A stretch of DNA of 63,288 bases, filler included, from Reticulomyxa filosa (GCA_000512085.1; 10 parts of 10 records of this genome joined end to end with filler, not necessarily neighbours in it); one strand, 5' to 3'. Counted from the first letter of the whole stretch, positions 6,175 through 62,025 are shown. Notes: generated from the sequence alone by a model not told the origin. Made by a program: numbers and translations.

Positions 6175-9100
6175 TCAATGTACGTCCATTTGAGTGATTG
6201 TTGGTCTCTGTTGATATCAATGGCATAAGTCAAATAAACACACGCACACATACACACACGTATATATGTATATAATGCTTTAGGCTCGTTTAAGTACTCA
6301 ATTATGTATGACAATAATAAAAGGACATTGCAGACTAAACAAAATGGCTCCGTGCTCTTCAAATAATTTGTCTAATTCATCGGCTCTATCTTTTACATAC
6401 AAAAAGTAGTCATCGACAGTTTCAATTCCATTGTCCTTCTTCTCTTTACTATCATTCAATGCGTAATCTAATAATCGCAACGTACGTTTCCAAAAGGCCG
6501 GCCAGTGACCCGAAGTTTCCATCCATTGCGCGAGCTCTTCCATGAATTTTTTCTCATTGGCATTAATTTCAGTGGTATCAAATGAGAATATCATAACGAT
6601 CAAATGAGCATTGTCATTGTCAAACAAATCCGGTAAAAAGGTAAACTCGTGCATTTCCAATACTCGCAATACAAAGTCTTTCGGACCACATGACAAATCC
6701 CGTTCAAATCTTTGAACGGACATTGCTGTTTTGCTCTGCTTGATTTGTTCGTCAGGCATCAAAAGATGAACAAACCTTCGACGCAATTTCCTGGAAGGCG
6801 ACAACACGACAATGTTCAAGGCTTTGTCTGGCTCGGCATTTATCCATGAAGTCTGTGTGTTTTCAGATTGTGGATCACGGTTTACAGTTTCACAGTTCAA
6901 AGTGTTGTCCAATACAAGACAAATAAGAAGACAAACAAACAAACAAAAACACTCCAATAACATCGTAGTCATAGTCTTGGGTCGGTGTGTCGGTCTGATC
7001 TTCTCCGTTGTCTTGGAGTTGCACAATGTCCGATATTTGGCTTTGTTTCGATTGATGTTTGCTTTCAATTGTATCGGGTGCGTTGATCTGTCCTATCGCT
7101 GCTGGTTCATTGCCATCATTTTCATCTTCATCCGTTTCATCATTTTCTAAAGCGTGTTCCAACGACGCGATTTTCATTTCCAGTTCTTTTCCAGCTAAAG
7201 ACATTTGGACAGTATGTTTTAATTGCACAATTGCCTGTCTTGCCTGCTCTCGTTTCTGTCTTAATTTGTCGTCCTCGCTTGCAAACTGTACTTGTCCATC
7301 TGTTATCTCCTCTGTCTTGTTTTCTTGTTTTGTGTCGTCGATCGACGCTGTTTTCATTTGCGAGTCTCTACTTTCGACTGACATGGCCACAGCTTGATCT
7401 GGCGCTTTGATTTTCTCTTCATGTTTAGCTTTTTCATTTTCGTTACTTATTTGCGTTGCTTTTTTTTTTTTAAAGTTATGAATATATTTATTTTTTTCAT
7501 CGTGCACATTTGTACCTGTATGTGTATCTCTTTGTAAATGGAACATGCACGTTAACTCGGCACCACTGGTTTTGGAGACACGCCCTCGACAGCATTGGAC
7601 ACGCCTGTGACGACAGATATGGATGCAAGAGGTGAGTTATTGGCAAGCGAATGAGGACGAGGCTCGTTGGGACTGCTTGTCGAAGCCGGTTTCATGATCG
7701 CACTTGCAGTGGAATATGCCATAACTAACTGTTGCATAAACACTGGGTCGTTGACTAAAGTCGGATCACGTTTAATTTTTTCTTGCAATATTTGGAGATG
7801 ATTGTTTGTCGTTGAAATATCAATTTGTTGTTGACTAGGAGAGCCGATTAAATCTGTTATTTTGCCAGAGGCACTGAAATAGGTCTGTTCCTCGTCCAAA
7901 GAGGATTGACTAACCATGGCCCTTCTCTATTCACAGCACACAGTCATCAAAGCTAATCTTTCATTCCAATTCCATTACTTTTTTTTTTTGATTGTCGATA
8001 AAAAAAAAAATATTGCAAATAGAAGAGAAACTTGTAATGATTTGATCATTTGTAACAATTTCTTGCGTGCCCCCAAAGTCTCAATTCCAAGCTGAACCAA
8101 GTCCTGTCCGTTTAAATCATCCAACATGTCACCACTAATTTGATTGCGATACAACACACTGGCCCAGTCTTGCCATTTTCCATTTTCTGCTTCGCTTAGC
8201 CAATAGTACACATCATCACTATCCCATGTACGATATTGATGAGGATCCAATGGACGCTTTTCACGTGTGGGACGACTTGGCCGCTCGCGAGGCGGTTCGT
8301 TGCTCTGCTTTTTGTCCTCTGCCTTTTTTTTTTTGAGAAATGGACAAAGAAAAAGAGGGGAGGGAAAAAAAGCTTTCATTTATTGGATTTATGTAAATAG
8401 CATTTGTAACTGGCGGAAGAGGCTGTTGTGATTCAAGATTAGTTTGTGAATTGGCTTGCTCGACTGCTCCCGTTGGCTTGTTGTTTGCGCTTGGCGTGTT
8501 TTTCGAGAAGAAACGGTTCCACAAGGAAGTCTTTTCCTTTTCTAACTGTTCTTCGATTATTGTTTGCTGTTGCTCTATTTGCTTTTGGTTCTCTGCTTTG
8601 GCTTCTTCCAATTGATGTTGCAACAGCTCCGTGTTTAAGTGACTCTGTCGTCGATCATTCGCACGTTGTTCGTTCAAAAGCGTATATTGTTGCTTCATTT
8701 GCTCAAACTCGCGTTGTTGGGTGGAAAGCAACGCCATTTGTTGTTGGTTGGTTTGTTCCAACGCCGCAATTCTTTGTATTTGATCTTCTTGTTGTTTTGA
8801 CATCACTGACAGTTCTTCACGTGCCGAATTTTGTTGTAATCTCGCCAAGAACAGTTCGTGCTCTTTTTCAATAAACTAAAAATACAAGTGTATGTACATA
8901 TATGTGTATACGTCTTTATATATTTATGTATGCATATATACATATGTATATGTATGTACATATATATTTTTTTTAATCAGTTGTTTGACAAAACAGTTCG
9001 AAGATGCTCTGAATTGTGATCGCAACGTTGGATAATTTCTTTTTTCACATCTCCAAGTTGAGAGTTGATTTCTTGTTCCAGTTCTGCCATTCTGTTTTGC

Positions 9101-11185
9101 AAATTTACAATTTGCTGCAGCACTTGGTTATACTGATCGCGTATATCCTGCGAGCTGTTATTTGTTTCTAATGCTCCCTTGGCCAACAAACACATTCAAA
9201 TGTGTTCGAGAGAAACGACAGCGATGGGCCTTTTTTAATACAAAGATGTGATGTATGAGATGGTCAAAAATTAACTTTCAAAGTTGTTGCCGACGTCATC
9301 AAATGTGTCAATTGTTGCGTGGCTTCCGCCTTGAGATGCAAGTATTCCTTCAAATGGTCAAATTTGTCGGCCAGCCAAGCTTGTACCTCTTTGATAATAG
9401 CCCAGTCTGTGTCACTCAGTCCGACCATCAATCTTTTACTTTCATTGTCATTATCGTTGTCATTGTCCTTGTCTTTGTCATTGTCATTGTCCTTGTCTTT
9501 GTCATTGGAAAGTACGGAGAGCACACTTGAGCGCGCTTGCAGTGAAGGATTAACGTCCGGGGAAAGATGTTGCTGTGCATTCGCAAGTTGTTTTTTCAAT
9601 TGATCCAATTCGGCTCGCAGCGATTGCACAACTTGTGGTAGATGACTTGTATCGTCGTTCTTTCGGATATTCAATTTCGGATCTACACGAATATTTTTCG
9701 CACGGTCAGCATATTTCAAAGAGTTGTGTGTTTCTTCCCATTGTATCGAAGATGGGGACAGATTCACAATCATGACCGCAAGGGAATTACCACCAAGTGC
9801 GTCTTGCAACATACGAGTTAACTTGCTGTCGCGATAAGGCACGAATTTTTCTGTTCATTGAAGACCAAAAAAAAAAATACTCCCTTTTCATCTTCGTGTG
9901 AGATTTACGTTATTTGGACATGTTTGTATTGCACATATGCGTATGGAACATAGAATTTTGAAGTAAGACGAAAGGGAGGGGAGACAGCCACGATATGCGT
10001 CTGTCATTCTAAACTGCCATCCACAAGTGCATTGATGCAATTTCCTAAAGCCAACAATGAGCGATTAATATTGGAACCCTCCCTTTGGTTTCCTTGATTG
10101 CTGGCCACAGTTCCCCTTTCAGATCCGGCCAAGTCGATCATATTTAATTTTCCGTTCATTATTTTATGACTTTGTTCGTCTGTTTTTGGCTTCGTTTCGA
10201 CATAAATTTGCAATATTGCATGGGAGCGAGAGGACGTTTCATTCATCAGTGTGGCTTCGGTAGTTCGTCGACGGTTCCCAACCTCTAATAATCGTATTAC
10301 TTCTTCTGATGTGCCAGCTGGAACTAGCTTTACTCCGGACACAACAACGCCCTTTTTTTTTTTTTTTTTTTTTGAGGAAAAAAAAGAAAATGCTCCACTT
10401 AAATGAGTAAAGTTTGAAAAAGGGGAAGGAGAAAAGCCAAGGGGGGGAAGAGGGAAAACTTTGGTTGGTGATTCTCGTAATTTCACGACAGCTCTTTCTT
10501 TGCTCATCAGATCCCGTATTTCTTCGTTGTAAATTTCCATAAATGCAATCAAAATATTAATTTCATAGTGAATCTTATTTTTGTTTGCTAAGTGGAACAG
10601 GTCTTTCAATGTACATACCATAATTCCTGGCTCATTTTTGTCGCCTACCATTGTATGGGTTTTCCCTGCTCCTGTTGCTCCATATGCAAATACTGTCGCA
10701 TTATACCCTTCCACAATTCTTCTCACTACGTTTCGAGATGTATTTTTGTATATTTCTTGCGTGCCCACTGTTTCGTCAAATGCATGGTCAAATGCAAATT
10801 TACGCTCTCTTTTTTTACGGCTTTTTTTTGTCGTTTTTTGTTACAGTTTTATATATTATTTTCATGTTAGCTCTTTTTTAAATATCCCTTCCCATTTTGT
10901 TTTATCAGGTGTTTTATTAATAAAACGTACTTCTTGCTTGGATCTGATAAAATCACGTACTTCTGCTCGACTACGCTTACCACGCTTTCATATCCTTTCT
11001 TTTTTTCGTGATCAAATAGTGGTCGAACTCTTATGGACACCTGTTCAAACACACAACCACAGGTCCGTGTTCTCATATGCTTGAACGCAAATAGTATGTT
11101 TACACACATTGAAGGTCTCTTTTTGCACGCCGAGCTCTTCTTCTGCTTTGGGCTCAGTTGGTTCATCTTCTTGAGCTTCGTCCAT
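6175..11185 (-). CDS. Kinesin-8 (KIF18/KIF19-like) motor + coiled coil + SAM domain + degenerate P-loop GTPase-like C-terminal domain; 12 exons
   Basis: Motor motifs [55 protein letters not shown] and [10 protein letters not shown]. All 11 GT-AG junctions checked by hand stay in frame through to the SAM domain ([11 protein letters not shown]...[13 protein letters not shown]) and on to a stop at 6175-6177. Confidence 0.85.
9442..9506 (-). repeat. Coding hexamer repeat encoding (ND/KD)n in the kinesin stalk
   Basis: ttgtca/ttgtcc/ttgtct tandem units translating as [21 protein letters not shown]. Confidence 0.85.
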
Positions 11186-11804
11186 AGAAAAGAGTCAGAA
11201 TGCTATATTTCTAAACCCCTTTCTCTAACTTCTCAAACTTCGCGGAACACAGAAACTTTGTTTGTTGAATCTGCTTGTAAGATATGTACTATACAATTTA
11301 AATTGCGGCTAACACGAAATATAGGTTTTTTTTAAACAAATGGCAAGTAACAAGAGATAGCTACAAACATTGTGGAAATATCTGTTTGGAGTCCTAAGCG
11401 CTCGGCCAGTGCTTTGTTTACACTTTGATGGATAATTGCTGAGCATTTTTGTGAATTTAAAGACCCAAAAGTAAAACAAATTAGGCTACTTGGCAAGTTA
11501 TTAGACTAGATGGCTAGTTGATTAGTAAATCAAGTAAAAACAATACAAGAAAATGCTACAACGAAAACATCAAACCAAACCACTAAGATACACTTCCTTT
11601 ACACACAAAAAAAGGAATCAAGGTCACAAAATAATTTTTCATTTTATAATAAAACGAAAAAAAAAAATAAATAAAACAAAATAATAAGAAAAAAACATAA
11701 AAACCGTAGCTATACATATACACCAACACTACAAAAGTCAATACAATGTCTACACATTTTGGCATCTCCAAACAAATTACACCTACCTTGATGGTTCAAG
11801 TTAA

Positions 11805-14800
11805 CTACTTTTCGATGGCTGCTTGAATGAGGGCAAGACGTTTTGGTGGTCTAAAAAGCAACACAACAGCGAATTGTGCAAACACGGATTCGCATATACA
11901 AGACGTACACAGAGAAATATATCGATATATTGCACACAGAAATAACGATGGAAGGAGCAGATGTACCCAACTGGTACTAATAGTGTTTTCAACAGAAGGT
12001 TTAATACTAGTTTGCTTCTTTGTTTGAGGAGACTGATTTCCTGAAGGGCTATTGGAGAAAGCGCTCAAATTAGAAAAGGGAGGCAACAAAAACTGGCGTT
12101 GTTGAACGGAAGTGTCTTGCAACGACCAAGAATTCTCTAATGTTGGTAATGGTTTTGGTGTTTCGGTATTGGGAATTTGCTGCAGCGAACTTTGTGTACG
12201 CACTTGTATATGGGGCAAACCCGTGAAGTTCATTGGTTGATTGGTAGGCAATGTGTTTATTTCTGTTTATTTATTACGTTTTTTTTTTAAATGTATTTTG
12301 TTAGACAATGAAATGTATCTATTTTCGTGAAGTAAAACAGACTTACTTGGGCACATGAACATGGAACCCAAAAACATATTGTTATTCATGGCATTGGAAC
12401 TTGTCGTGGACACAATGGGGGTATTAATCATTGTGAAATTTTTGGGATTGTTCCAATTTGCTTCTGTCTCTGTGACTGCCATGGCGAGATTGGCTTGCAA
12501 CAAAGGACCAAGCATCAGTCCACTTTCTTGTGGTTGGTGTTGTTGCGATACCAATGACTGCGAATGGGCCCGAGGAAAGCATAGGATATCGTTCATTGAT
12601 TGTAATAGCTCAAGGACTGTGCGATGACCATACAATCTGGGCTCCAAATACGCTTTGTATCGTCGCGCAAACTCATTTTCAAATTCCGTCAGCGACAATA
12701 TTTTTTGTTTGTTATCGACTTCATTGTCCGATGACGTATTTTCTTGTCCACTTTTCGCCGTGGAATCAGGAGAATTAAAGATTTTCAATATTTTCCATTT
12801 CAGTTCTTTCATTGGAATTCGATGCATTTTCTGTTGCGGACATGTTTACAACACATATGACGATATACATACATCTCACGTTAAACGTAGAGTGTAAATA
12901 TTATACAATGTATATACAAATATGTATACGCATTTTGTACAAAAAAAAAAATCCTTTGATGTAGAATCTAAACTGGAGTAAGAACAATTCTTTCAATAGG
13001 ATGGCGCTTAATTTGCAAAAGCTTGGGATTTTTGGAGACTAATTTCGTGATCTCAGGGCCATCCACACGAAATTGGAATTTACGAAACAGCCTCGTTTGC
13101 ATTTGTGCCACAGTCAATCCAGACGTTTGATGCGCAGCTTCGAGGACAGCTTCCAATAACTCGTGCGAAGAAGGCCGATTTTGTTGATGATTCTTCTATT
13201 TTCATAGAGAAAGAAAACAAAGCGTTGTTTTGTGTTGTCCATAAGATGTAACAAAGTGTTTCTGCTTTTTTTTTTTACTCTCAAAAAAAAAAAAAAGATT
13301 GAAAATAACAACAAAATTTTTTGAATATCCTCCCCCTCCTTTTTTTTTGTCTCCTTTCCGTTAACGTACCACTCTTTTACGATCAATGAAAGGCCTGACA
13401 TCAATTGTTCGACCACGGATCTCAATGGGAGAACACGCGACCAATTTTTGGGCTTGTTGTGCGTTCTCTACCTTCACAAATGACCACCCGTAGTTGCGAT
13501 AACTGATACCCTTGCAGTCTGCCACTTTGACATCATACATTGCCAATGCATCTTCTAACTCTTTCACCGACGTTCCGTAAGCAAATCCACCCATGAATAC
13601 CGTTCGATCGTCTTCCTGTAACAACCGAGAACATAAAAAAAAATAATTTTCAAGGAGGTGAATACAAATAAACAAAAAAACTCACATCTTTTATTGATCC
13701 CTTTTCTTCTTCTCGTTTCCAATTAACTTCGCAAAGTGTTTTGATTGACGCACTTACGTCCTCTCGGCACTTCGCACAAATTAATTCAAACAGCGGCCTG
13801 TTCTTTTCGTAATGTGCTTCAAAATTTGGAGCCAAGCGAAATTGACTGATCATAAACTTGAGCGAGTTGCAGCTACTGCGCAACCCACTGCGTAAGACGT
13901 TGCGCGAAAAGTTGGCCTCATTTCGAACATGTGACGCATGTTGCAATTGCAATTGTTTTTGCTCTTGGTTTAACTTTGGATCGTTAATTTTTTTTAATAT
14001 CCGGTTGATTACTGGAGAAGAAGCATTCAAAGGCATTCTAAATAGTTGTCGAAATTCCCTCTCCAACTCTTCAGTGGAAATTGGTTTTTGGTGATGAATC
14101 AATAATGCAATGAACAGCTCACGATAACCAATTGCGGACGACAACACCTTTTTTTTTAATAAAAAAAAATGCTTTTTAATTCCATCCCAAAAAAAAGAAA
14201 AAAAAAAAAAAACAATACAAACGCCATGGCAGTTGTGTCCATTTGGATTTAGTTGCGCACTTTCCGCTGGCTGATAAACTACAGACCGTTCCACTCTGCT
14301 GACAACAACATCACAATTATTTACCACAAACTGGTGCGGATCCGGTAAAATTTGTGACAACCTTTGATCCATTTCCATTTCAACCCAACGACAACATGTG
14401 TTCTTTTTTTTTTCAAAAAAAAAAAAAAAGAAAAAGACAAGCCAGTCATTTTCAAAACACACTTGTATCCACAAAAATTAGAGATCACATCGTTCAAAAT
14501 ATCGGACGAAATTCCACAAGGAAACAACCGAATGATCGCGTTAATATGTCCGCAAATGGCTTCAGTAATTTCTGGAATTGAATATTCTTCAAGTATACTT
14601 TGTACAGCCTGATAAGTTCCGACAGTGACAAACAACAACAAAAAAAATGCACTGTTTTGGTCCATTATTTTTGGCTTGTATGGTTTCACAAAGTGGGATC
14701 AACTTGATGGTGGAGCGTCAGCAAGTTACCACGATTAACACAAGGAGTGATCAACACATTTCGATGGTTAAACAGCAAATACTCAATGTTATCGTCCATT

Positions 14801-21600: not shown

Positions 21601-24600
21601 ATTTGAATCGTTGAAAAGCATTGCAAAATTAAGCCCTTCTGTTACTTCGACGGCGGATGAGCGATTGCTTTGAAGTGCTCGTTGTCTGGCGCGACGATGT
21701 AATAGCGTTAAACGATCGATTGCGACAGTGCTATTTGTTATCCCATCTCGATATAGTTGTTGCAACATATTCCAATTGGGCATGTGCTCTTCAAAATTGC
21801 AAAGATCTTCTTCGCTGATAATTTCTGCCTCTTTGCTTTCCCACATCTTTACAAAGTCATTGAAAGACTTGCTGTCGTCGTCACTGACGTGTCTTTGGAT
21901 TGGCATTTCATTTTTACCGTAAGATCTTCCGTCGATGTCACACAATTGTTGTTTCAGCTCGTGGCAAGGGGTGTTTGTCGTCTCATCGACCACTCTGTGT
22001 TTCGTTGGGTTCATCACACAACCACCATTCTCAATAACCTTTTGTTTCTACAACTCAAAACGAGGACTTGAACAACACAGGTACGCAAATAATCGTAAAT
22101 CTGATTTGTTCATTTAAATAAGCATTTTTGTTGGCTACAAAAAATTAAGCGCAACAGAGAAAAAAGGGAAAAAAGAAAACGCAAAGCGAAAGACAGAAAA
22201 AAATAGCTGTTTCATAATCTTTAAAACGGACGATCAGCATTTTCAGTAGCATTGGGATCAACAAAGCAAAAATTGTCCACTCTCTTTGAATTTTTTTTTT
22301 TGGGAAGAGAAAAAAAAAAAAAGCCCAAAATTGGCGACGAGTTATTATTATTACACAAGATTGCAAGCGATTCAAAAAAAAGCCAAAAGGATATATGTGT
22401 CAACAACATACCTCATCATTTCATCTCTTTTGAAAGGCTCAAAGTCATATTCAAAAAACTGTTGGTCTGGTTGAGTAGCGTAAGGGCGACGTGACCCAAA
22501 GCCGATCAAAAAAAAGTAAACCTTGTCCACATAAGACGCCAATGTAATTTCCATCAGGGGACATGGCAATATCGGTGATAGGGTTTATCGGCGACACCGA
22601 AAACATTTTGATGATGGAGCCATCGATCATATCCCATATCACTAATCGACCACGGTTGTCACCACTAATACCCACTCGTGGATCAATGGGATGGGTTCGA
22701 CACATTGTCACTGTTTTGGAATGTCTAGAAAAATGTGTAAATAAAGTCTTATCACTAATTCGAAACACGTTGACAATGCCCCGCTCACCACATGCCAAAA
22801 TATGCGAGTTATCCGCATTGAATTCTGCGAAAGATACTTTGGGTGGTTTTGCTCTTCCTCGTGCTTGCGTCTCTGTGAATTACAATACAGTCATGTCTTT
22901 TATTGCTTGTTGATTGTGAAACTAACATTTTTGTTTGTAATAAAAAATTCCAAACTTTTATGCCCAGCCCTTTCAAGAAAGAAGCGATGTCGCAATAAGC
23001 AGTGCATTGTGGTATTTTCGTCTTGGCCATTAAGGACAATGTCCCATACACTCACGCTTCCGTCTACCGAAGCTGCCAGCATCAACCTTCCATCTTTCGA
23101 AAATTTTAAAGCGTTTCTTACTCCCGCACTAAACATATTGTGATCACACATCCCAAAAAATAACAATGTATTATTGTTGCAAACTTATTCTTTTTTTTTT
23201 TTTAGGAAACATCTTAACCTGTGTGCACTGACAACCTGAATTGGATGTTGTTCATTCAATTTAAAAAGTAGGATGTATCCATGATTAGTGCCAACAGCAA
23301 AAAATTTTCCTGATGGATGTAGTGACAATACCATGGCCTGACAAAGCTCTTCTCTTTCTTCATTTGTGGCTGCCATTTGATTCGATCCCCTTCGGGTTTT
23401 TTCGAATCGCTTTTCCAGCTACCCTTTGCATTCAAACCTTTGGACGATGTCTGGTTGGCCATGTCTTGAGACTCAAGCATAGCATTGATCTCTCCCTTTT
23501 GTTTGTATTTTGTTATTAAAGTTAGGCAGACGCAATTCGTTCTTTTTTGTTGTTATTACTTTGTGTAAACATAGTTTTGTCAAGTAAGATATCTGTGTTT
23601 GTTTTTGTCGAACCCTACTGAAACAAGTGTAGACAATATTATTATTATCATCATCCTTATGTTCGATCGAAGTGTTGTTATTCAATATGTAGTCGGTGAG
23701 ATGCCATTCGTGAATGTGTCCATCATACGTAGGAACAAACAGTACATAGGGTTTTTTGTTCGCCACTCCATCGTCTTCTTTAAATACAACACGTGAAGGG
23801 GTTGCATTGTGTTCCAGAACAGCCAACAACGCACCTGGTTATCACAGCAAAGCGATATTATTCAATCACAAATACAAGACATAGTGTGTGACCTAAAAAT
23901 AAAAGAAAACACACCTGTTTCGGAATCCCACAAGTGCACTTTGTTGTCACTGATTGTTGCGACAATATTGTCATCCGGCGATAGACAAAGATCAGAGACC
24001 CTTCCCTATTTGTGCAAGGCAGATACGTCACAACGTGTCGACAATAGTCTAAAAAAAAAAAAAAGAGGCGTGTTTGTGTTTATAAGCGAACCTCATGTCC
24101 ACGAAACGTTTTCTTCAGTTGGCCAGTTGATGTTTTCCATGCTTTCACTAACCAATCGTTTCCCCCCTTTTCTCAACATGTTGCACCACATTAACAAACT
24201 CCGTCGTGTTACACACCATCGAGCATACTTTGTTTTCTTTTCAAAAAAAAAAAAAAAAAGGAACATTCAATAAACAATGTTCAACTGTGTAGATGGCAGA
24301 TCCGCTTTTGCTAAATTCCAGACAAAATGCACTATTGGCATGTCCTTGTGTCAGTATCAACTATTGAAAACATGAGAAACACCTATTCATCTGCAAAAAA
24401 AAAAAAAAAAAACAAAACAAAAAAACAAGTAAACAGAAACATGTTTGTTACATTGCTATATTGTGAATACAAAGCATAAGTTGGCACGGCTGAACGACCA
24501 CGCTCCATGATATTTGCATGATATCCAATGTGGCGCGAAAATCCGTATTCTCTTTGACACAGATAAGAGTCTGATATTTGTCATTATTTTATTATAATGA

Positions 24601-27216: not shown

Positions 27217-27316
27217 NNNNNNNNNNNNNNNNNNNNNNNNNNNNNNNNNNNNNNNNNNNNTTAATTAATTAANNNNNNNNNNNNNNNNNNNNNNNNNNNN
27301 NNNNNNNNNNNNNNNN
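27217..27316. other. Artificial contig spacer; identical spacers at 35141-35240, 36670-36769, 38036-38135, 46199-46298, 49874-49973, 51409-51508, 57401-57500 and 62026-62125
   Basis: Identical N44-TTAATTAATTAA-N44 100-mers carrying stops in all six frames. Confidence 0.98.
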
Positions 27317-35060: not shown

Positions 35061-35240
35061 TTGCAAGCAAGCAAGCAAGCAAGCAATGATAAAAATCAAT
35101 CGATGGAATATATAAAGCAATAAAACAAAAAAAAAAAAAANNNNNNNNNNNNNNNNNNNNNNNNNNNNNNNNNNNNNNNNNNNNTTAATTAATTAANNNN
35201 NNNNNNNNNNNNNNNNNNNNNNNNNNNNNNNNNNNNNNNN

Positions 35241-38035: not shown

Positions 38036-38135
38036 NNNNNNNNNNNNNNNNNNNNNNNNNNNNNNNNNNNNNNNNNNNNTTAATTAATTAANNNNNNNNN
38101 NNNNNNNNNNNNNNNNNNNNNNNNNNNNNNNNNNN

Positions 38136-39787: not shown

Positions 39788-42763
39788 ATGGCATCTGCAA
39801 ACGTATCCAATAGATTATCAAAGCTTTTGAATCATCTGGAGGGTATGTTTTGCTATACTTCCTTTTTTTCCTCTTCTCTGTCACGTTAAGCGTCTTCAAC
39901 AGAAATCAAGAAAGATCAGACCCTTCAAAAACAAGAAACAAGTGGCTCAACCATCTCCCCAAAAGTGAGTGTATTAATTATAACAGTGATTGATTATACT
40001 TTTTATACTTAAATATTTTTCAAGGTGAGAAAAGAATTTTTTTTTAATTAACAAAAAAAAGGATCTGTGGCAACGATGGTACGACATACAAGTGAATGTA
40101 AAAGAGTTACAAAAAATTTTGGATCATGACAACTTTGAGATGCGAGATAAACTTCGAGAGGTGCTGAAAGATGACGTGTTTATTCCTCGTTTGCATCTGT
40201 CATTGTCAGAAGAGCGCGAATTGGCATTGCGACGATTAAAAAAGTTTACGGATACCAAACTGTTCTCAGTGCGAGATTTCGAATCCAACCCCCGAGCAAT
40301 TTTCGCAGCACATGAGATTGGTGGATACGGTGACGGGTCCACAGCGACGAAGATGACTGTCCAATTCAATTTGTTTGGCGGCACCGTTTTCAAAGTTTTG
40401 TTTTCAAATCGAGATGTCTGACACTTTGTCTGTATTCAATACTAAAATACATTGTATACATACATATGTATATGTGAGGGATATTTGGAGAAGAAAAAAA
40501 GAATTGGTTTTTGTTTTGTCATTTATTGCACATTTCCAGTTAGGCACAAAACGACATCACCATTTATTGGATGGTATCGATTCGTTGCATGACGTAGGAG
40601 TTAATAATTGAATCGATACATTTTTTCTTCATTTTTAATCATCTAAAAAACACACAAATAAATACATTGCACATAAAATGGATTTTAGAGAGTTTAAATT
40701 GTATATGCAGTATACATACACATATACATATATATGTGCACATGTATATGCAATGTTTTGACGCACTATTGTGTTACGTGACTTTTTTTTTTTTGAAAAA
40801 AAAAAGTGCTTTGCGTTGACCGAATTGGGCTATGGTAATAATGCAGTTGAAATGGAAACAACCGCAGCTTACGACCATTCGGACGGAACATGGACGGTGA
40901 ACACCCCCAGTCCGTTGGCACAAAAGTATTGGATAACCAATTCCGCTATTCATGCCCATTGGGCGGTGGTGTTTGCCCAAACCATTGTGGATAATACCAA
41001 TCATGGCATTCATGGATTCTTGGTCCCCATTCGCGATCGCAAAACTCATCAACCTTTGCCTGGGGTGCGCATTGAAGACATGGGATATAAATTTGGATGC
41101 AATGGGTAAGTTATCATTACATATCTTTACACAAACTTTGATTGGCATAACAATATTGACTTTTGGGGTTACAATTTACTTTTTTGCATTGTATATACAT
41201 GCGTGTATGCTTTATGACTCACATACATTTATATTTACATACAGTGTGGACAACGGCAAGTTGTGGTTCAATAACGTAAAGGTGCCCCGAGAAGCATTAT
41301 TGAATAAAATGAGCGATGTTGATGCCAAGGGTGTGTTCACCAGTACCATTAAAAAAAAAGAGACCGATTTTTAAAAGTGGCCGATCAACTCTTGAGTGGG
41401 CGCATTTGTATTGCTGCCATGATGTTGAGCTCATCTAAATTTGCCCTCGCTAGTGCCTTGCGCTATGCTGCTACAAGGCTTTGCGTCGGCCCAACTGGAA
41501 AATCAGACACTGCCATTTTAGAATATCAACTGCAACAAAGAGCTTTGATGCCTTTGTTGGCCAACACTCTTTGCTTAAATTTCGGCTTGAATTATGTCAA
41601 AGATAGGTTCGTAGTGCGTTCATTATTTTGTCAATTTCTTAAATATATATGTATATACATTTTTTTAATAAAATTTTAATCTTTCAATGTTTATGATGGA
41701 AATGGACATAGATATTCTGGTATTGGACCAAATGATCCTCAAGAAGTTGTCATCCTGGTATGGCTGATAGTCTTTCTCAAACAAATGAAAAGAATTGTTT
41801 ACGCATATGTGACACAAGATTTGTTTGTCCAAAAAAAATTTAAAAAATGAAAAAATAGTGCTGCGGCATTAAACCTTTAATTTCGTGGCATAGCAATGAA
41901 ACGTCGACTATTTGTCGCGAGCGATGTGGTGGCCAGGGCTATTTGTCTATCAATATGCTCTCTTCTACAATCACCTTTGCACATGCAGGCATGACCGCTG
42001 AAGGAGATAATAGTGTACTGTATCAGAAAGTCAGCAAAGAATTGTTGGACCGAATGCGTCAGAAAAAACACGTCTTCAATGACAAAGAGATCAAAGAACA
42101 CTTACAAAAATTGAATTGGAATGATCCCTCATCTTTGCAATATCTATTTTTGGCTTTAGAAAAGTTGTGCTTGGAGACCTTAGGCATGAAATTAATGACA
42201 GCTGTTGGTGGTAACAATGACAAGCTATTCCATGTGTGGATGAAAGAACAAAGCGATTGGATTCAATCCAGTGCTTCTGCTTATGCAAATCGAGTTACTA
42301 CACGTCTTTGTTGTGTTGATTTTTGTATTTTGTCCCCTTCTCCAAAACTTACACAAATTACAATGTTGTATGTAACAATCGTGTTCGTGCGAACATTTTG
42401 AATAATTAACTACCTTTGCATATACAGATAGTTTTTGAGGCGTCGCTGAAAGTCTTGAAACAAGTCCAAGATGATTATTTACGCACAGTAATTGAAAAGT
42501 CTATTTTGCTGGCTCAATTAGCTGCAATTGAAAAAAATATTGGCAAATTGGTTAGCTATTCGTTGATTAGCACAAAAGATGGCCAAAATTTGGGCGATCA
42601 CATCAACAAATTGTGCAAATTTTTGGCTCCAAAATGTTTGTCGATATGCCAAGCCTTTGGCATTCCAGAAGAACGATTTCCTCCCATTGCTAGGGATTGG
42701 GTTGAATATAACAAGTGGGACAATCAAGGAGAAATTTATACTCACCACCCTTTGACCTCATAG
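39788..42763 (+). CDS. ACOX: Peroxisomal acyl-CoA oxidase with N-terminal PTS2; multi-exon
   Basis: Motifs [43 protein letters not shown] and TAEGDNSVL. Exon 1 [17 protein letters not shown] contains RL-x5-HL. One apparent A-run indel at 41351-41359. Confidence 0.92.
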
Positions 42764-48700: not shown

Positions 48701-51700
48701 TTTTTTTTGGTTTCACTCTATCAACACATCTCCTTCACATACTTATCGCTTCAATTTATCAAAACACTTTAGGTTTTTTTTTAGAAGTAATATCACTCCC
48801 CCCCTTTTTTTTAAAAACAAAAAAAAGTGCAATTTTAAATTATATAAAAAAAAGGAAGGAATATTATCTCCCAACGACATTGGGACTAAATGCGTATGGG
48901 GTTTTTGCACTTGTCAATGAAGCTTGGAAAGCTGCATGAAGCAGTTCCATCGATGGCCAAATATATCTATGCGGATTTTGATGCAGGAAAGGATAAGGAT
49001 CACAGCAACGGTGGTCCCTCGCAAATACAATACGATTGGTGGAATCCTGCTCAACTCAAACAACACGTAACTGAGTTTTTTGGAACTCGAACAAGCCCCC
49101 TTTTTTTCCTCCAGTCGTTTGGAGTTTCAAAGTGATGCTTTGGACAATCTATGGACTGCTTTGGAACAATTGGCAAGTGGCTTATGTTCCAATTCGAGTG
49201 CCAAACAACTGTCCTTTTTCAAACGAAGGATGTACTACTCTTTGACTCAACAATTTGGATGAAATCCAAGTAATACAACTTTTGCCATTGTATTTTGAAG
49301 TCCCATTGTATAAATCATTCAGCGTGTCAATCCCCATTTGCACAAAGTGCGTCGGAAGGCTAGAGCTTTATTCTCTTGGTACACGGACTCAGTCTACCAA
49401 CTCGATTATCATGCCATTAAAAACTTGGAGTTGCCAACAACCCAGGATATAGCTATTATGCATTATATGACTTGAGCTATGCCATTTTGATGTTTCACGG
49501 AGGGATTGAGCGAGTGCAACGTCGCATTCGAAAGGCTCCATCTCAATATCCTAGGTGTGACAAGGGCAATGCTCGTTATCAAATGCTGCATTTGCAATAT
49601 GGGTATATTTAAAATTCAAGCGCTTCCTCCACCACCGTCACCACTTAAAAGTAGAAGAGCTATCACCAATAATGAGACAGTCACAGAGAAGTTGTTGACT
49701 GCCAAAGACAGTGACAACAACACTCGCAAAAACAAAATTACTTTGGTTTGGGCAAAGTGATTGTGACAAACCTTTTTCTTTGTCCGGATTTATTGTTGCT
49801 TCAATTTTTTTTTTTAACTTCTCTCTTCAAATTTTTTTGATTGATAAATCAAAAATCTTTTATTTGATCTTTTNNNNNNNNNNNNNNNNNNNNNNNNNNN
49901 NNNNNNNNNNNNNNNNNTTAATTAATTAANNNNNNNNNNNNNNNNNNNNNNNNNNNNNNNNNNNNNNNNNNNNATGTCGAAATTTTCTGCTTTGAGATGT
50001 CAACATCCTTCTTTTGATGAAACTTTATTTCACAAATCAAAACAAGACACAAAACACTTTTTAAAAAAAAAATTAATTTTCATTATGTAGCATTTTTTGC
50101 ATTTGCGCAAGGCAGTAATTTTTGTTATTTTTAAAGCTATTTTAATCCATGGCTTGCTTTAGTTTGAAAAAACTTTAAAAAGCAGCCAAATTACTGCAGA
50201 AAAAAAACTAACGGTTATGTTTGACAGTCGACTGAGAAACGTCAAAAACCTGTTCGACGGCAACGACAAGACAAAAGAGTTGTCCGATTATAAAGCTGAG
50301 TTGTTTGCCGTTGCTACTGAATTGGATGCGCTCAAACAAACGCTCACCGCTGTTGTTAGACAACAGAAAGAGTTATAAGCACTAACTCTGTTTGATACAA
50401 TTTGTCTTTTGGGGACCTTTGGGCATTGTGACTGCTTTTTCACTGTTAAATTTGCATTCAATTCTAAATTTTGTAATGTCACATTCTCAATTATAATTTT
50501 TTTTAAATAAAAAAAAATATCGGGCAATCCAACCTTCCAGAAGCAAACATGTCCGGCACCAGCGTGGCGACCCCCATCATCAAGGAGTTGGTGATAGTGC
50601 CCGCAACAGTTTTGCGAGGGTATTAAATTTCAGATATATTATATTTCGCAACTGGTATAGGTGTTCAGAAATCTCAACAATAGTATTTTCAGTAAAATTT
50701 TAAAAAATAGCACATTTTGTATATTCTCAGATATTATACTCTAAAATAACTTTTTTTTTTAATTATATATTTTTTCCTACATTTTCTTTTCTTTTTTTTA
50801 CAGGGTCAGGAGGATGGACTATTTCTCCCTCTCATACTTTGGTAACAAACAAATGGCAACATTCGTTTCAATTGCAAAAAAAAAATTATTTCGGAGAGCT
50901 CATGTCCACCTTTAAAAAAAAAATTAGATCCGAATGTTGTTTTTTCATCAATCAAATCGTCATCTTACTATTCTACTTCTCCTATTTCTTTCTCTTTCAT
51001 CCATTTTAATAAAGTTTTTAATGATTGCGTTGATTATCTCTTTATAGTTTTTTGCATTCTGAACAAAAATAAGAATATTGAAATCAATTACTCGTGAAAG
51101 AATCTACTAAATGTTGTGTGATCGTGCTCAAATTTTTTTTTGAGATAATCACTAATTGTTAATTTTTATTATCAAAACGAAAAAAGAAACATAGCGATGT
51201 GAAACTAAAAGTTTCATTGCTTCCTTTTTGATGCCTTTGAAAATCAATAACTTTTCATTTTGTTTGTGTGAAAGCTGTTGAAAAGCAAAGCAAAATCAGT
51301 GAAAAAAGCAAATTGTTTGATAGAAGAATGATTTACCACATGGTGAATGAAGACAGTTGATAAAGTGTAAGAGAACGCTTTGAAAGCATATTCTTCCTGT
51401 TTTTTTTTNNNNNNNNNNNNNNNNNNNNNNNNNNNNNNNNNNNNNNNNNNNNTTAATTAATTAANNNNNNNNNNNNNNNNNNNNNNNNNNNNNNNNNNNN
51501 NNNNNNNNCCTTTCTCTTTCTTTGAGTGTTTGGTTTTTAGTTTTGTCGTTTGTGTCCAGGAAAGCTTTTATGTTGGTTATGACGGTCGAGATACTATCTA
51601 CAGTGTACTGTCAGTATGAGATTAACGCAGATGAAATTACATATTGCTAATAGAAACTGCTCACAAACAACAAATTCGCGTTTATTCATCTGCACTGATG

Positions 51701-54700: not shown

Positions 54701-54719
54701 TGCCTAGATAACTACAACT

Positions 54720-56340: not shown

Positions 56341-57500
56341 TGTAAAACTATTCGACAGAAGACTTGGTGTATATGAAGGTGCCACCAAACTGACACAACA
56401 TGGACACTAACGACAAGGGATTGTTAGTAGAGAACAAACTGAAAGAATTGCAAGCATGGCCATATTCACATATTGCGCTTAACACATTGACTTATCATTG
56501 CGACATCAGCACATTATGTTGGAACACAATCAATTTATTTAAACTTTGGTCAGCTTTATTTCAACCATGCATATATCACGCATTTTCGAACTGCATAATA
56601 CTTCCCCAATCTTCAAGTATACGTAGATCAAGGTGATATGATTACCAACTTAGGAATACATATTGTAGAAGTCACTCATAGTATTTAGAATGACACCATC
56701 AAATAATAGTTGATTACAACTTCATTCAACAAGGACACATGTCTGGCCATCTAATTAGTTTCTGCTATACTTTGGTGGCACTAAAAGATCATATTACAAA
56801 ATCTTATTGTTTCTTATGCTTTAGTCCTTGATTAATCCTTTTTTTAAATTAGTTATGGTTTTGTATGCATGTATGTTCTTGGTGGTTTATGATTTTTGTA
56901 TAATGTACTTTACACATTTTATAAGCATTGGTTATAATATGTTGACTTATTGTAAGTCTTATTTTTCTCAATGTTTTGAAATTAATTTAATTGTATAAAA
57001 GAATATCTATCTTTTCATTTTTATTATTTTCAAAAAAGAAAAGGGCTGTCTTTTTTTTTTTTAAAATAGTGTTATTCGTTGCAAAAAGTTTGGGGAGATA
57101 GAAAAATGAATGTACAAACAAACTCTTCAAGGAAGAAACACGTAGAGATAAAAGATTTTTCAATAGTATTAAAATCTGGATCTTATTTTAGATATGAAAA
57201 AAATAACCACATTTGAAAAATGATACAATTAGAATAAAACACACTTGCGTTTCAATAATAATAACAAATCACACAATGAAATTAATTACATTCAAAGAAA
57301 CAGAACATAACACAAAATAAATCAATGTGTTGATTTGTTATATAATTGAAGAAACTATCCAGACAATATTGCCCAAAATATATATATATATATATATTGT
57401 NNNNNNNNNNNNNNNNNNNNNNNNNNNNNNNNNNNNNNNNNNNNTTAATTAATTAANNNNNNNNNNNNNNNNNNNNNNNNNNNNNNNNNNNNNNNNNNNN

Positions 57501-59171: not shown

Positions 59172-59207
<36 letters not shown>

Positions 59208-60741: not shown

Positions 60742-62025
60742 ATGTTAACACTCAGCACGACGATATTGCAAACAAAGAAGGACAAGATGCTTATGAAAAA
60801 GAATTTTTTGACGAGGGAGTTTCCACTCTGTTGTGGTTGTGTTTGGTCGTCAATTGTTTTTATTGCAGTCTATATGTTGCTTAAGGAAATGAACACGCCA
60901 AAGTATGGTGCAACGAACATAGCAGGTCTAATTCTTTTTGGGTTTATCTATGTGTTATCTACGAGTGCTTTTTGTACTTACTTTTTGTATTCCTCTACAT
61001 TGGAAATGACACTTATTCCTTTTAAAAAATCAGACTTGCCTTGCGATGTGACAAACTCAAACCAAGCTGTACAAATATGTAATCAATCATATAATGGGAA
61101 AAGTGCAGCATATGGTGGACAGAGTAAAAATACAACAAGTTTGTAATGCTTTTTTTAAAAATAAACAGCACATAAGAATTGAAATATATGATATAATCTG
61201 ATATCTAAAAAAAAAAAAGACGTATCTGATATGTCGCAGTCAGATGACGAATATCACAAGGAACATCAATTTTGCACTAATTTTTGCAATGTTGCTGTTG
61301 AGGAATGGGAACGAAAAGAAATAAGTGGTTTGTAAAAAAAGAGGCTTATTTTTTATTGTGTACCAGTTGGACGGAAACAAAAAAATTATTTTTTTACAGA
61401 GTGGGGAAAAACGCTGATACCAGTAGCTCAGAAAGAGATAGAGCGTTGGTTGCAAAATGAAAATTTCATGTTTAGTGGCGAGACAATATCGCAATGGGAT
61501 CACAGCACTTGGCAATTTAAAGTGAAAAATGGAGTTGCTCGGACTCAAATTCGAGAGAGTTGGGAAAAACTTAAAAAAAAGCAGCACAACAACAATAAGG
61601 CCAAATGTGGTCATAAAAAAGATAAACATACGATCATGAGCGAATATGGACAACATTCTACTAGGGGAATAGTCGGTTTCCAAAATTTGGGTAACACATG
61701 CTATTTAAACGCTGCTATTCAAGTTATCTTGTCTGCATCTCAAACACACCTTTGAATAATTTTTTTTTTTTTTTTTTTCTTTCTGTCCTCCAATCTTTCC
61801 TTCTTGAATGCCAAAAGTGTTTATTGCAAGTGCGACCACTAATGAAAATGGAATGGAGTTCACAACCCGAAGAGAACACCTTTGGCAAAGAGTGGATACA
61901 TTTGACCAATGAAGTGCATAAAGAAAATTATGCCGGAGAGCGCATTCTCAGCACTAAATACTTGATACCATTTCTTGGAGACATCGACTCAAGGTTATTC
62001 CTTTTTTTTTTTTTTTTTTTTTTTT
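60742..62025 (+). CDS. USP-family (peptidase C19) deubiquitinase with two predicted N-terminal TM helices (3'-truncated)
   Basis: Cys box GFQNLGNTCYLNAAIQ|CL. The 2-TM exon 60742-61138 splices in frame (GT at 61139, A12G at 61219) to NVSDMSQSDDEY and on to the Cys box. Confidence 0.78.

What the first reader, a model, noticed from the sequence alone, without database searches (positions are those of the whole stretch)
6175..62025. Inverted intron grammar: weak donors, 5' U-rich, poly(A) directly before the AG acceptor
Seen in frame-verified introns: kinesin donors are GTGTGT, GTACGT, GTTTTC, GTTTAG, GTTAAT, GTTTTG, GTTACA, GTTTCT, GTTAAC, GTGTTT and GTCATA, none of them GTRAGT. Many acceptors are A-runs rather than polypyrimidine tracts: A21G (10352-10459 minus), A11G (8323-8410 minus), A12G (7459-7556 minus), A8G (39965-40061), T12-G-A10G (40600-40806) and A12G (61139-61219). 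Known: U1 pairs GURAGU and U2AF65 binds a 3' pyrimidine tract. Inference: splice sites here are defined otherwise, by altered U1/U2AF specificity or by intron structure. Not universal: some introns are conventional.
Basis: partly seen in the sequence, partly recalled or inferred. Interest (0 to 1): 0.78.

Follow-up and report, generated by a model that had tools for sequence, protein, structure and literature searches.

The report
Foraminiferan introns ending in A-runs
In this Reticulomyxa filosa DNA, 7 of 24 checked introns end in a run of 8-21 A's plus G and 16 of 24 begin GTT instead of GTRAGT, which likely reflects a lineage-specific tuning of ordinary splicing, not an inverted code, and matters for finding genes in foraminifera.

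Summary
All six named A-run acceptors are in the sequence, and I found a seventh. I curated 24 GT-AG introns: 13 fixed by spliced alignment to foreign homologues or a paralogue, 3 by R. filosa protein models, and 8 by frame logic only.

- **Acceptors:** 7 of 24 end in A8-A21 + G, against 12 of 1287 intergenic AGs (Fisher p = 1e-8). The -3 base is C 10, A 10, T 4, G 0.
- **Donors:** T at +3 in 16 of 24. Only 2 of 24 are GTRAGT.

The "inverted grammar" reading is only partly right.
- 14 of 24 acceptors are ordinary YAG.
- A pyrimidine-rich tract usually still precedes the A-run (0.71 against 0.51).
- Hairpins are not general (2 of 8).
- U1 and U2AF could not be examined here.
- GUUUGU-type donors have a published precedent in Entamoeba, with a co-evolved U1.

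My reading: these are ordinary U2-type introns with shifted, weak signals. The A-run likely acts as a G-free spacer, so the first AG downstream is the one used.

A strand-symmetric motif, T-run then A-run, occurs 14 times against 0 for the reverse order, and it is enriched in introns.

No RNA evidence could be obtained. I found no printed description of A-run acceptors, but the genome paper was not readable.

The parts
10352..10459 (-). kinesin-8 motor intron, 108 nt, GTTTTC...T8CCTC-A21-G
   Evidence: Found in 6 of 6 spliced alignments. It is in frame and has no stop, but the homologues lack it.
   Evidence: Found in 5 of the 5 alignments that reach it. An A7G 12 nt downstream is an in-frame alternative.
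9851..10014 (-). kinesin-8 intron, 164 nt, GTTTAG...T11GGTCTTCAATGAACAG (conventional 3' end)
   Evidence: Found in 6 of 6 alignments.
9178..9275 (-). kinesin tail intron, GTTAAT...GGCCAAG
   Evidence: Frame logic only: part of the 1213-codon open frame.
8876..8994 (-). kinesin tail intron, GTTTTG...TTTTTAG
   Evidence: Frame logic only.
8323..8410 (-). kinesin tail intron, 88 nt, GTTACA...pyrimidine-rich tract-A11-G
   Evidence: Frame logic. Of 12 open alternatives, this uses the first AG.
7927..8031 (-). kinesin tail intron, GTTTCT...GAATAG; holds an internal T13..A11G whose AG (7978) is not the frame-compatible acceptor
   Evidence: Frames read. All three frames after 7978 close within 0-7 codons.
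7459..7556 (-). kinesin tail intron, 98 nt, GTTAAC...A12G
   Evidence: Frame logic. 21 open alternatives remain.
6853..6952 (-). kinesin tail intron, GTGTTT (or GTTATT at 6961)...CACACAG
   Evidence: Frame logic. The donor is ambiguous by 9 nt.
39843..39902 (+). ACOX intron 1, GTATGT...CAACAG (acceptor 39890 in 2 of 4 alignments)
39965..40061 (+). ACOX intron 2, 97 nt, GTGAGT...T9-AATTAAC-A8-G
   Evidence: Found in 4 of the 4 alignments that reach it. Its length is not a multiple of 3.
40395..40539 (+). ACOX intron 3, GTTTTG...TTTCCAG
   Evidence: 5 of 5
40600..40806 (+). ACOX intron 4, 207 nt, GTTAAT...T12-G-A10-G; the next exon opens with the conserved CFALTELG motif
   Evidence: 5 of 5. Unconstrained alignment places it within 1 nt in 3 of 3.
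41106..41244 (+). ACOX intron 5, GTAAGT...ACATACAG
   Evidence: 5 of 5
41607..41711 (+). ACOX intron 6, GTTCGT...GACATAG
   Evidence: 5 of 5
41758..41858 (+). ACOX intron 7, GTATGG...A8TTTA6TGA6TAG (A-rich, ends TAG)
   Evidence: 5 of 5
42294..42427 (+). ACOX intron 8, GTTACT...ATATACAG
   Evidence: 5 of 5
2756..2815 (+). leucine carboxyl methyltransferase intron, GTTTGT...TTAAAG
   Evidence: Spliced alignment of the R. filosa model P0243, which matches the window at 100% identity.
23184..23228 (-). WD40 gene intron, GTGCAC...A13-G-AATAAG; the A13G AG lies 6 nt upstream and is in frame
   Evidence: Model P0244.
22873..22922 (-). WD40 gene intron, GTTTCA...TTCACAG
   Evidence: Model P0244.
22467..22521 (-). 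WD40 gene intron, GTTTAC...CAACCAG
   Evidence: P0244 and the paralogue P0245.
21995..22411 (-). 417-nt intron, GTATGT...AACACAG, joining the WD40 part to the 707-codon ORF; holds the T-run..A-run motif at 22291-22322
   Evidence: Paralogue P0245 only.
61139..61219 (+). USP gene intron, 81 nt, GTTTGT...A12G, phase 1
   Evidence: Frame logic. 16 open alternatives remain.
61328..61399 (+). USP gene intron, 72 nt, GTTTGT...T7ACAG
   Evidence: Frame logic.
14148..14169 (-). T9-ATT-A9-G, candidate acceptor (unverified)
   Evidence: Coding-score step of +7.0.
14403..14429 (-). T15-G-A10-G, candidate acceptor (unverified); predicted hairpin
   Evidence: Coding-score step of +6.2. Fold z-score -3.0.
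41352..41360 (+). A9 run inside an ACOX exon where the reading frame shifts by one base. This is a homopolymer length discrepancy, not an intron.
   Evidence: Homologues read straight across it.

Best explanation
These are ordinary GT-AG spliceosomal introns of the foraminifer Reticulomyxa filosa with shifted signals: 16 of 24 curated donors have T at +3, and 7 of 24 acceptors are the G that ends an A8-A21 run, which is likely used because it is the first AG after a pyrimidine-rich tract and a G-free spacer.

**Shown**
- The introns are real for the 13 homology-fixed cases.
- The donor pattern is A|GTTWNT-like.
- The acceptor is HAG, with AAG as common as CAG.
- A-run acceptors are enriched about 30-fold over decoy AGs.
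- Pyrimidines precede the run.
- The AG-free zones before acceptors are long.

**Inferred**
1. The branch point and pyrimidine tract are recognised upstream as usual.
2. The A-run holds no G, so the first AG met downstream lies at its end. An A at -3 is tolerated there.
3. The U-rich donors are matched by U6 ACAGA pairing, by a changed U1 5' end, or by both, as described for Entamoeba.
4. The homopolymers themselves arise by slippage in low-complexity non-coding DNA. The genome-wide T-run-then-A-run motif supplies ready-made 'tract + spacer + AG' units.
For: - **Organism.** The window encodes RFI_03419 [Reticulomyxa filosa] at 100% identity. The best named ACOX relatives are the foraminifera Bolivina, Nonionella and Elphidium.
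- **Introns fixed by homology.** ACOX has 8 introns and the kinesin motor 3. Boundaries found with no dinucleotide constraint lie 1-7 nt away with the same length for 6 ACOX introns with P0005 and P0009 and 5 with P0008.
- **Final tallies.** A>=8 + G acceptors: 7 of 24. The -3 base: C 10, A 10, T 4, G 0. The +3 base: T 16, A 5, G 3, against 0.39 T at decoy GTs (p = 0.006). GTRAGT: 2 of 24. Median AG-free zone: 40 nt.
- **Enrichment over decoys.** Fisher p = 1e-8. Only 1 of 361 intergenic AGs with an equally long AG-free zone follows an A-run.
- **Pyrimidines before the run.** 0.71 against 0.51, p = 0.02.
- **T-run then A-run.** 14 against 0 for the reverse order, p = 1e-4. 5 of 17 such motifs lie in the curated introns, which make up 4.4% of the DNA (p = 7e-4).
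- **Precedent for the donors.** Entamoeba uses GUUUGU with a U1 reading 5'-AACAAAC-3'. The authors also note that GUUUGU can pair with U6 ACAGA (10.1101/2022.06.08.495308; abstract and sections 12 and 16 read).
Against: - **No RNA.** No junction is shown in RNA.
- **Weaker boundaries.** 8 of the 24 introns rest on frame logic, which leaves 12-21 other open GT..AG pairs for the three O-class A-run introns tested. Two A-run acceptors have in-frame AGs 6-12 nt downstream.
- **The first-AG rule is broken once.** The A11G at 7978 lies inside intron 7927-8031, yet it is not the frame-compatible acceptor.
- **No branch motif.** YTRAY occurs within 80 nt of the 3' end in only 7 of 17 introns, so 'downstream of the branch point' is assumed.
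- **G after A-runs is not only a splicing signal.** It stays enriched away from acceptor-like sites (62 of 151 against 0.239).
- **Donor signal in the strict set is weak.** In the homology-fixed set alone, T at +3 is 7 of 13, not significantly above decoys (p = 0.21).
- **Small sample.** 24 introns from 3 of the 10 contigs.
Confidence: 0.55

Rival explanations
1. Retuned recognition machinery. The A-tract is itself a recognised 3' signal. It would be bound by a changed U2AF large or small subunit or by another factor, or it would supply the branch adenosine. The donors would be read by a co-evolved U1. In that case the A-run class is a distinct, selected splice-site type.
For: - A-run acceptors are about 30-fold enriched over decoy AGs.
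- AAG acceptors make up 10 of 24.
- 3 of the 7 A-run acceptors are preceded by 0.67 pyrimidine or less in the last 15 nt: 10821 at 0.27, 61219 at 0.60 and 7459 at 0.67.
- Entamoeba shows that U1 can co-evolve with GUUUGU donors (10.1101/2022.06.08.495308, abstract).
- Earlier notes of this scan report GTT donors and AAG acceptors in another rhizarian, Bonamia (unchecked).
Against: - Nothing in the window bears on U1, U6, U2AF or SF1.
- 14 of 24 acceptors are plain YAG.
- Run length varies from 8 to 21.
- Most A-run-G sites (about 60 of 75) do not look like acceptors.
- Roy and Bowser found unchanged U1 in several lineages with atypical donors (section 16).
Confidence: 0.22
2. Structure-defined 3' ends. 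The U-run pairs with the A-run, and the hairpin brings the branch region next to the AG or presents the AG.
For: T-run then A-run sits directly at 3 curated and 2 candidate acceptors. Hairpins of -12.9 and -12.8 kcal/mol, with z-scores of -2.5 and -3.0, are predicted at 40806 and 14403.
Against: - 6 of 8 acceptor regions fold no better than z = -1.6, and 5 of 8 sit at z >= -0.4.
- The acceptors at 7459, 10821 and 61219 have no T-run.
- A hairpin would form equally with the runs in the reverse order, which never occurs (0 of 14).
- Intron ends do not pair: -2.6 to +1.3 kcal/mol for the A-run class.
Confidence: 0.07
3. Artefact. The boundaries are mis-called, or the low-complexity stretches are translated insertions and not introns. 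The A-run class would then be an annotation illusion in homopolymer-rich DNA.
For: - No RNA evidence exists.
- 10352-10459 is in frame and has no stop.
- The putative PH-gene intron at 30808 could not be given consistent boundaries.
- Frame logic leaves many alternatives.
- Both of my ab initio gene finders did badly: the second matched at most 3 of 11 introns exactly.
Against: - 39965-40061 (97 nt) and 10821-10930 (110 nt) are not multiples of 3 and have conserved flanks.
- The exon after 40806 opens with the conserved CFALTELG motif.
- Homology-only boundaries agree to within 1 nt for 40600-40806.
- Homologues lack the 36-residue stretch in the kinesin motor.
Confidence: 0.08
4. Mobile-element origin. 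The A-run and T-run introns are copies or footprints of an introner-like element whose ends provide the splice sites.
For: The T-run..A-run motif is palindromic, recurs 14-17 times, and is enriched in introns.
Against: - 23 of 24 introns have no other copy in the window.
- Intron-to-intron matches are only 9-19 nt of low-complexity or microsatellite sequence.
- The spacers between the runs share no sequence.
- No consistent target-site duplication is visible at the boundaries (by eye).
Confidence: 0.05

Closest known systems
Entamoeba GUUUGU(U) donor sites with a co-evolved U1 snRNA (Roy and Bowser, bioRxiv 10.1101/2022.06.08.495308; abstract and sections 12 and 16 read; they cite Davis et al. 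2007)
   Same: U replaces the purine at +3 and the A at +4. G at +5 and U at +6 are kept. Three of the 24 donors here are exactly GTTTGT.
   Different: In Entamoeba 88-90% of introns are exactly GUUUGU and the genome is intron-poor. Here the pattern is degenerate (T at +3 in 16 of 24, T at +4 in 14 of 24) and the genes are intron-rich (ACOX has 8). The U1 of R. filosa was not seen. Entamoeba is not reported to have A-run acceptors.
Canonical U2-type introns: GTRAGT donor, branch point, polypyrimidine tract, YAG, with the first AG after the branch point chosen (textbook knowledge, recalled)
   Same: GT-AG ends. 14 of 24 acceptors are YAG. There is a long AG-free zone before the acceptor (median 40 nt). 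Pyrimidine-rich sequence lies upstream.
   Different: Only 2 of 24 donors are GTRAGT. AAG acceptors are 10 of 24. In 7 of 24 an A8-A21 run lies between the pyrimidine-rich part and the G.
Bonamia ostreae introns as noted earlier in this scan (e1-9730884, e1-7133096, e1-9583167, e1-9598849; AI notes, unchecked)
   Same: Another rhizarian reported with GTT donors and AAG or A-rich acceptors that lack a pyrimidine tract.
   Different: Those introns are 19-31 nt long. One note ascribes the A-rich ends to base composition. Here the introns are about 100 nt, and A-run acceptors far exceed what the composition would give.
Very short introns of myxozoans and Dicyema (PMC13644364; passages read)
   Same: Little or no polypyrimidine tract. 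A residues lie a few bases before the AG and are suggested as the branch site.
   Different: Those have 2-3 weakly conserved A's in 20-27-nt introns, not homopolymers of 8-21 in 100-nt introns.
Hairpins between branch point and 3' splice site in budding yeast (Meyer et al. 2011, recalled, not read here)
   Same: Two acceptor regions here could fold so that the AG is brought close to upstream sequence.
   Different: This is not general here: 2 of 8.

Membership tests
U2-type (major) spliceosomal GT-AG intron | GT at the 5' end and AG at the 3' end | tested here: met
   24 of 24, though the aligner required GT or GC and AG. Without that rule, the boundaries of most ACOX introns fall 1-7 nt away with the same length: 6 with P0005 and P0009, 5 with P0008.
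U2-type (major) spliceosomal GT-AG intron | Removal restores a conserved, open reading frame | tested here: met
   ACOX against 5 homologues and kinesin against 6. 1213 and 285 open codons result.
U2-type (major) spliceosomal GT-AG intron | Junctions present in RNA | not testable with these tools
   The only run listed held just two short contigs, on a hexamer repeat.
U2-type (major) spliceosomal GT-AG intron | Branch-point motif (YTRAY) 10-50 nt before the AG | tested here: inconclusive
   Present within 80 nt of the 3' end in 7 of 17 introns.
U2-type (major) spliceosomal GT-AG intron | Polypyrimidine tract before the AG | tested here: inconclusive
   Pyrimidines are 0.58 at -30..-16 against 0.48 at decoys. 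They are 0.71 just before the A-run. No tract sits directly at the AG in the A-run class.
U12-type (minor) intron | Donor [AG]TATCCTT | tested here: not met
   0 of 24 donors (table).
Entamoeba-type GUUUGU introns | U at +3 and +4, G at +5, U at +6 in nearly all introns | tested here: not met
   T at +3 in 16 of 24, T at +4 in 14 of 24, G at +5 in 10 of 24, T at +6 in 14 of 24. Exact GTTTGT in 3 of 24. The pattern resembles the family without matching it.
Entamoeba-type GUUUGU introns | U1 snRNA 5' end complementary to the atypical donor | not testable with these tools
   No snRNA in the window and no genome held.
Introner-like / transposon-derived introns | Many near-identical intron copies, with terminal repeats or target-site duplications | tested here: not met
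   23 of 24 introns are unique in the window, and only low-complexity matches were found. The sample is only 63 kb.
Euglenid-type nonconventional introns | No GT-AG; ends held together by base pairing | tested here: not met
   The ends are GT-AG. End-to-end duplex energies are -8.4 to +1.3 kcal/mol, and -2.6 to +1.3 for the A-run class.

The most novel reading that the evidence does not exclude
Reticulomyxa, and perhaps Rhizaria more widely (given the Bonamia notes), runs a retuned major spliceosome. A U1 or U6 interface is adapted to GUUUGU-like donors. A 3' recognition step accepts, or even prefers, an oligo(A) tract between the pyrimidine tract and the AG. That would make 'U-tract, A-tract, G' a distinct selected class of 3' splice site, not described for any eukaryote.
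Probability: 0.22. Interest if true: 0.75.

Novelty: new variant of a known kind. Interest (0 to 1): 0.52.

Why it matters
- **Splicing signals.** If it holds genome-wide, a free-living, intron-rich eukaryote would show a pyrimidine at +3 in two thirds of donors and AAG at about 40% of acceptors. A third of those acceptors would sit behind long A-runs. That stretches what the major spliceosome is thought to tolerate. It would also give a second, independent lineage beside Entamoeba in which to test co-evolution of U1 and U6 with donor sites.
- **Gene finding.** Gene finders trained on GTRAGT and a polypyrimidine tract will miss such introns.
  - The published R. filosa annotation averages 2 introns per gene (PMC13746701, Table 1).
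  - Here ACOX has 8 introns and the kinesin at least 9.
  - No full-length ACOX model of this organism appeared among proteins of 316-2000 residues.
- **Wider effect.** Protein sets of foraminifera used in phylogenomics may therefore be fragmented.

Tried and rejected
- **RNA evidence.**
  - The look-up of sequencing runs listed one run (X1; RNA is only a guess; share 0.07): no RNA holder listed.
  - The second, on 8980-11630, placed only two short contigs, on the hexamer repeat at 9457-9503, with no joints. So there is no evidence either way.
- **No genome or RNA genes.** No whole genome is held. Rfam and tRNA scans of the window found nothing.
- **ORF-openness test.** The test of A-run-G sites did not discriminate: random positions are open for >=40 codons 48% of the time.
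- **Ab initio gene finders.** I wrote two.
  - The codon log-odds version mis-placed most ACOX boundaries.
  - The 3-periodic Markov version recovered at most 3 of the 11 verified introns exactly.
  - I dropped both and used no counts from them.
- **PH-domain gene.** The A21G at 30808 looks intronic, but no donor gives a consistent frame with that AG. An AG 5 nt downstream does, with donor GTCGCA at 30991. I did not count it.
- **Kinesin ends.** The 5'-most intron (GTGTGT) got different solutions from different homologues. The 3'-most (GTCATA) could not be verified.
- **Motif and structure tests.** Branch motif search, hairpins, intron end pairing and intron sequence families gave no general pattern.
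- **Literature.**
  - Eight searches found no description of A-run acceptors or GTT donors in Reticulomyxa or other foraminifera.
  - PMC3079666 calls foraminiferal introns canonical (passages read).
  - The genome paper (Glockner et al. 2014) is not held, so it or its supplement may describe the splice sites.


Full report
**What the window is**

The window is AT-rich: GC is 0.24-0.41 in 2-kb steps. It has many A and T homopolymers, with 78 A-runs and 89 T-runs of 8 or more on the + strand, against 0 C-runs and 1 G-run.

It is not one locus. Nine joiners of the form N44-TTAATTAATTAA-N44 link ten separate contigs, and five of the nine left-hand contig ends are homopolymers.

The first contig encodes a protein that the collection names 'hypothetical protein RFI_03419 [Reticulomyxa filosa]'. 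It matches at 100% identity and aligns to 2203-3264 with one intron. The best named relatives of the acyl-CoA oxidase (ACOX) gene are the foraminifera Bolivina argentea, Nonionella stella and Elphidium margaritaceum. A GC of 35% agrees with published figures for R. filosa (PMC10245619, Table 1, read as a passage).

**Checking the observation**

The six named introns have exactly the stated ends. No splice-aware aligner is offered, so I wrote a protein-to-genome dynamic program with intron states.

- **ACOX.** Five homologues gave the same seven introns from 40395 onward in 5 of 5 alignments. The intron 39965-40061 appeared in the 4 alignments that reach it.
- **Kinesin-8 motor.** Six homologues gave 10459->10352 and 10014->9851 in 6 of 6. 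They gave 10930->10821 in the 5 that reach it.
- **No dinucleotide rule.** With no GT/AG requirement and a high intron penalty, six ACOX introns (five with P0008) came back with the same length, shifted by 1-7 nt. The intron 40600-40806 was shifted by 1 nt in 3 of 3.
- **Not an intron.** An apparent 20-nt 'intron' at 41343-41362 is really a one-base frame change inside an A9 run. The homologues read straight across it. Homopolymer lengths in this assembly are therefore unreliable, and figures such as 'A21' are approximate.

Further introns came from other sources.

- **WD40 gene.** An R. filosa model (P0244) and a 67%-identical paralogue (P0245) gave four introns.
- **Kinesin tail.** Six introns rest on frame logic. 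With all eight kinesin introns removed, 1213 codons are open. Keeping any one of them, except the in-frame 10352-10459, closes the frame.
- **USP gene.** Two introns rest on frame logic (285 open codons).

Frame logic is weak evidence for exact boundaries. For the three frame-only A-run introns, 12-21 other GT..AG pairs also keep the frame open.

**The numbers**

There are 24 introns: 13 fixed by homology, 3 by R. filosa models, and 8 by frame only. The median length is 100 nt.

| Feature | Count |
|---|---|
| Acceptor is A>=8 directly followed by G | 7 of 24 (4 of 13 in the homology set) |
| Base at -3 | C 10, A 10, T 4, G 0 |
| Donor +3 | T 16, A 5, G 3 |
| Donor +4 | T 14 |
| Donor +5 | G 10 |
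| Donor +6 | T 14 |
| Last exon base | A 15 |
| Donors matching GTRAGT | 2 of 24 |

- **Donor control.** Decoy GTs in intergenic DNA have T at +3 in 0.39, giving p = 0.006 for 16 of 24. For the homology set alone (7 of 13) p = 0.21.
- **Acceptor control.** Among intergenic AG dinucleotides, 12 of 1287 follow A>=8 (Fisher p = 1e-8; homology set alone 1e-5). Among those with at least 26 AG-free bases upstream, it is 1 of 361.
- **Overall A content.** At -15..-3 it is 0.49 against 0.38 at decoys, driven by the run class (17 introns).
- **5' U-richness.** This is modest: T is 0.43 and A 0.28 at +3..+30 (17 introns).

**What the A-run class looks like**

- **Upstream sequence.** The 15 nt before the run are pyrimidine-rich. 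The mean is 0.71 for the 7 acceptors against 0.51 for 61 other A>=8-G sites (Mann-Whitney p = 0.02). Examples are T8CCTC-A21-G, T12-G-A10-G and T9-AATTAAC-A8-G. Three of the seven have a weaker or no tract: 10821 (0.27), 61219 (0.60) and 7459 (0.67).
- **AG-free zone.** Every curated A-run acceptor is the first AG after an AG-free stretch of about 25 nt or more. The median over all 24 introns is 40 nt.
- **Most A-run-G sites are not acceptors.** A coding-score step that averages +9.5 at verified acceptors averages +2.95 at A>=10-G sites. About 12-15 of the 75 sites look acceptor-like.
- **G after A-runs in general.** G follows A>=10 runs in 37 of 76 cases, against a background of 0.239. This stays enriched after 13 acceptor-like sites are removed (62 of 151). 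Part of it is unexplained. Lysine runs in exons contribute.

A T-run followed within 15 nt by an A-run (both 8 or longer) occurs 14 times. The reverse order occurs 0 times. At 7 or longer the counts are 17 against 1 (p = 1e-4).

The motif reads the same on both strands. Five of the 17 lie in the curated introns, which make up 4.4% of the DNA (p = 7e-4). Three of those five sit exactly at acceptors, and two further ones sit at unverified candidate acceptors (14148, 14403). Others lie inside introns (7979-8010, 22291-22322) or in unannotated DNA.

**Mechanism**

I read these as ordinary U2-type introns with weak, shifted signals.

- **The 3' end.** A pyrimidine-rich tract is still present. The A-run contains no G, so it extends the AG-free zone, and the first AG falls at its end. 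An A at -3 is evidently tolerated, since AAG is as common as CAG. This step is inferred, not shown.
- **The donor side.** The pattern is a degenerate form of GUUUGU. That donor is known in Entamoeba, where U1 carries a complementary 5'-AACAAAC-3'. The authors there also note that GUUUGU can pair with U6 ACAGA (10.1101/2022.06.08.495308; abstract and sections 12 and 16 read). Whether R. filosa has changed its U1 cannot be tested here.
- **Spliceosome complement.** R. filosa served as the 'non-reduced' reference in a survey of spliceosomal proteins (PMC10245619, Fig. 2 legend and section 7 read). This argues against a stripped-down machinery.

**Results that count against my reading**

- The A11G at 7978 lies inside intron 7927-8031 and is not the frame-compatible acceptor, so 'first AG' is not absolute.
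- No branch motif is evident (7 of 17).
- In the WD40 model the annotated AG lies 6 nt beyond an A13G, and both are in frame.

**Rivals**

- **Hairpins.** Predicted folds beat shuffles at z < -2 in 2 of 8 acceptor regions. A hairpin also would not explain the strict T-then-A order.
- **End pairing of the euglenid kind.** Absent.
- **Introner-like families.** Absent in this sample: 23 of 24 introns are unique.
- **Artefact or read-through.** Excluded for the homology-fixed cases. Two of the four A-run introns in that set are not multiples of three. A third is followed by the conserved CFALTELG motif.
- **Dedicated recognition of the A-tract, or a retuned U2AF.** This remains open at about 0.2.

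**Comparison with what is known, and novelty**

- Eight literature searches found no account of A-run acceptors or GTT donors in foraminifera.
- One paper calls foraminiferal introns canonical (PMC3079666, passages read).
- The R. filosa genome paper is not held, so prior description there cannot be excluded.
- Earlier notes of this scan report GTT donors and AAG acceptors in the rhizarian Bonamia ostreae. These are unchecked AI notes. They gave me the pointer to Entamoeba, which I then read myself. One of them ascribes the A-rich ends to base composition. Here composition does not explain them.
- I rate the finding a new variant of a known kind. The donor side has a clear precedent. The A-run acceptor class has none that I could find.

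**Limits**

- There is no RNA evidence.
- There are 24 introns from three contigs, and a third of them rest on frame logic.
- Homopolymer lengths are uncertain.
- No snRNA or splicing-factor genes were available.

Noticed in passing
27217-27316, 35141-35240, 36670-36769, 38036-38135, 46199-46298, 49874-49973, 51409-51508, 57401-57500, 62026-62125: Each N block is N44-TTAATTAATTAA-N44. This is an artificial all-frame stop joiner, so the window is ten separate contigs. Five of the nine left-hand contig ends stop in a homopolymer and one stops in (AT)n, which fits assembly breaking at such runs.
   Followed up: partly
41352-41360 (+): The ACOX reading frame shifts by one base inside an A9 run, while the homologues read straight through (IKKKRxRFLKV). 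The likely cause is a homopolymer length error in the assembly. A real frameshift is less likely.
   Followed up: yes
whole window; list: T-run then A-run (both >=8, gap <=15) occurs 14 times, against 0 for A-run then T-run. The motif is strand-symmetric and enriched in introns. Its origin is unexplained: slippage, chromatin or splicing.
   Followed up: partly
whole window: G follows long A-runs about twice as often as expected, even away from acceptor-like sites (62 of 151 against 0.239). C is depleted (6 of 76 after A>=10).
   Followed up: partly
61700-61790 (+): In the USP gene the conserved UCH start (GNTCYLNAAIQ) continues in another frame (..LVCISNTPLNNFF), with no room for an intron. 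This suggests a second small indel. A T23 run follows in that frame (by eye).
   Followed up: no
30803-30991 (-): The first PH domain of the PH-repeat gene is split by about 130 residues. They include an obviously non-coding stretch (T23, C/T-rich, TG-rich, A21). The intron boundaries could not be fixed.
   Followed up: partly
21995-23376 (-): The R. filosa WD40 model P0244 ends in what a paralogue (P0245) indicates is a 417-nt intron. The gene probably runs on into the 707-codon ORF at 19927-22047, so the public model looks truncated.
   Followed up: partly
40395-40539, 40600-40806, 8876-8994: Several introns carry TATACA/TATG-type microsatellite-like stretches that match one another over 14-19 nt. 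A similar (CA)n-like stretch at 6231-6277 tripped the read-laying filter.
   Followed up: no
39788-42754 (+) and 6301-11040 (-): ACOX has 8 introns and the kinesin at least 9, against a published annotation average of 2 per gene for R. filosa (PMC13746701, Table 1). No full-length model of either protein appeared in the length ranges searched. The annotation may under-call introns.
   Followed up: no
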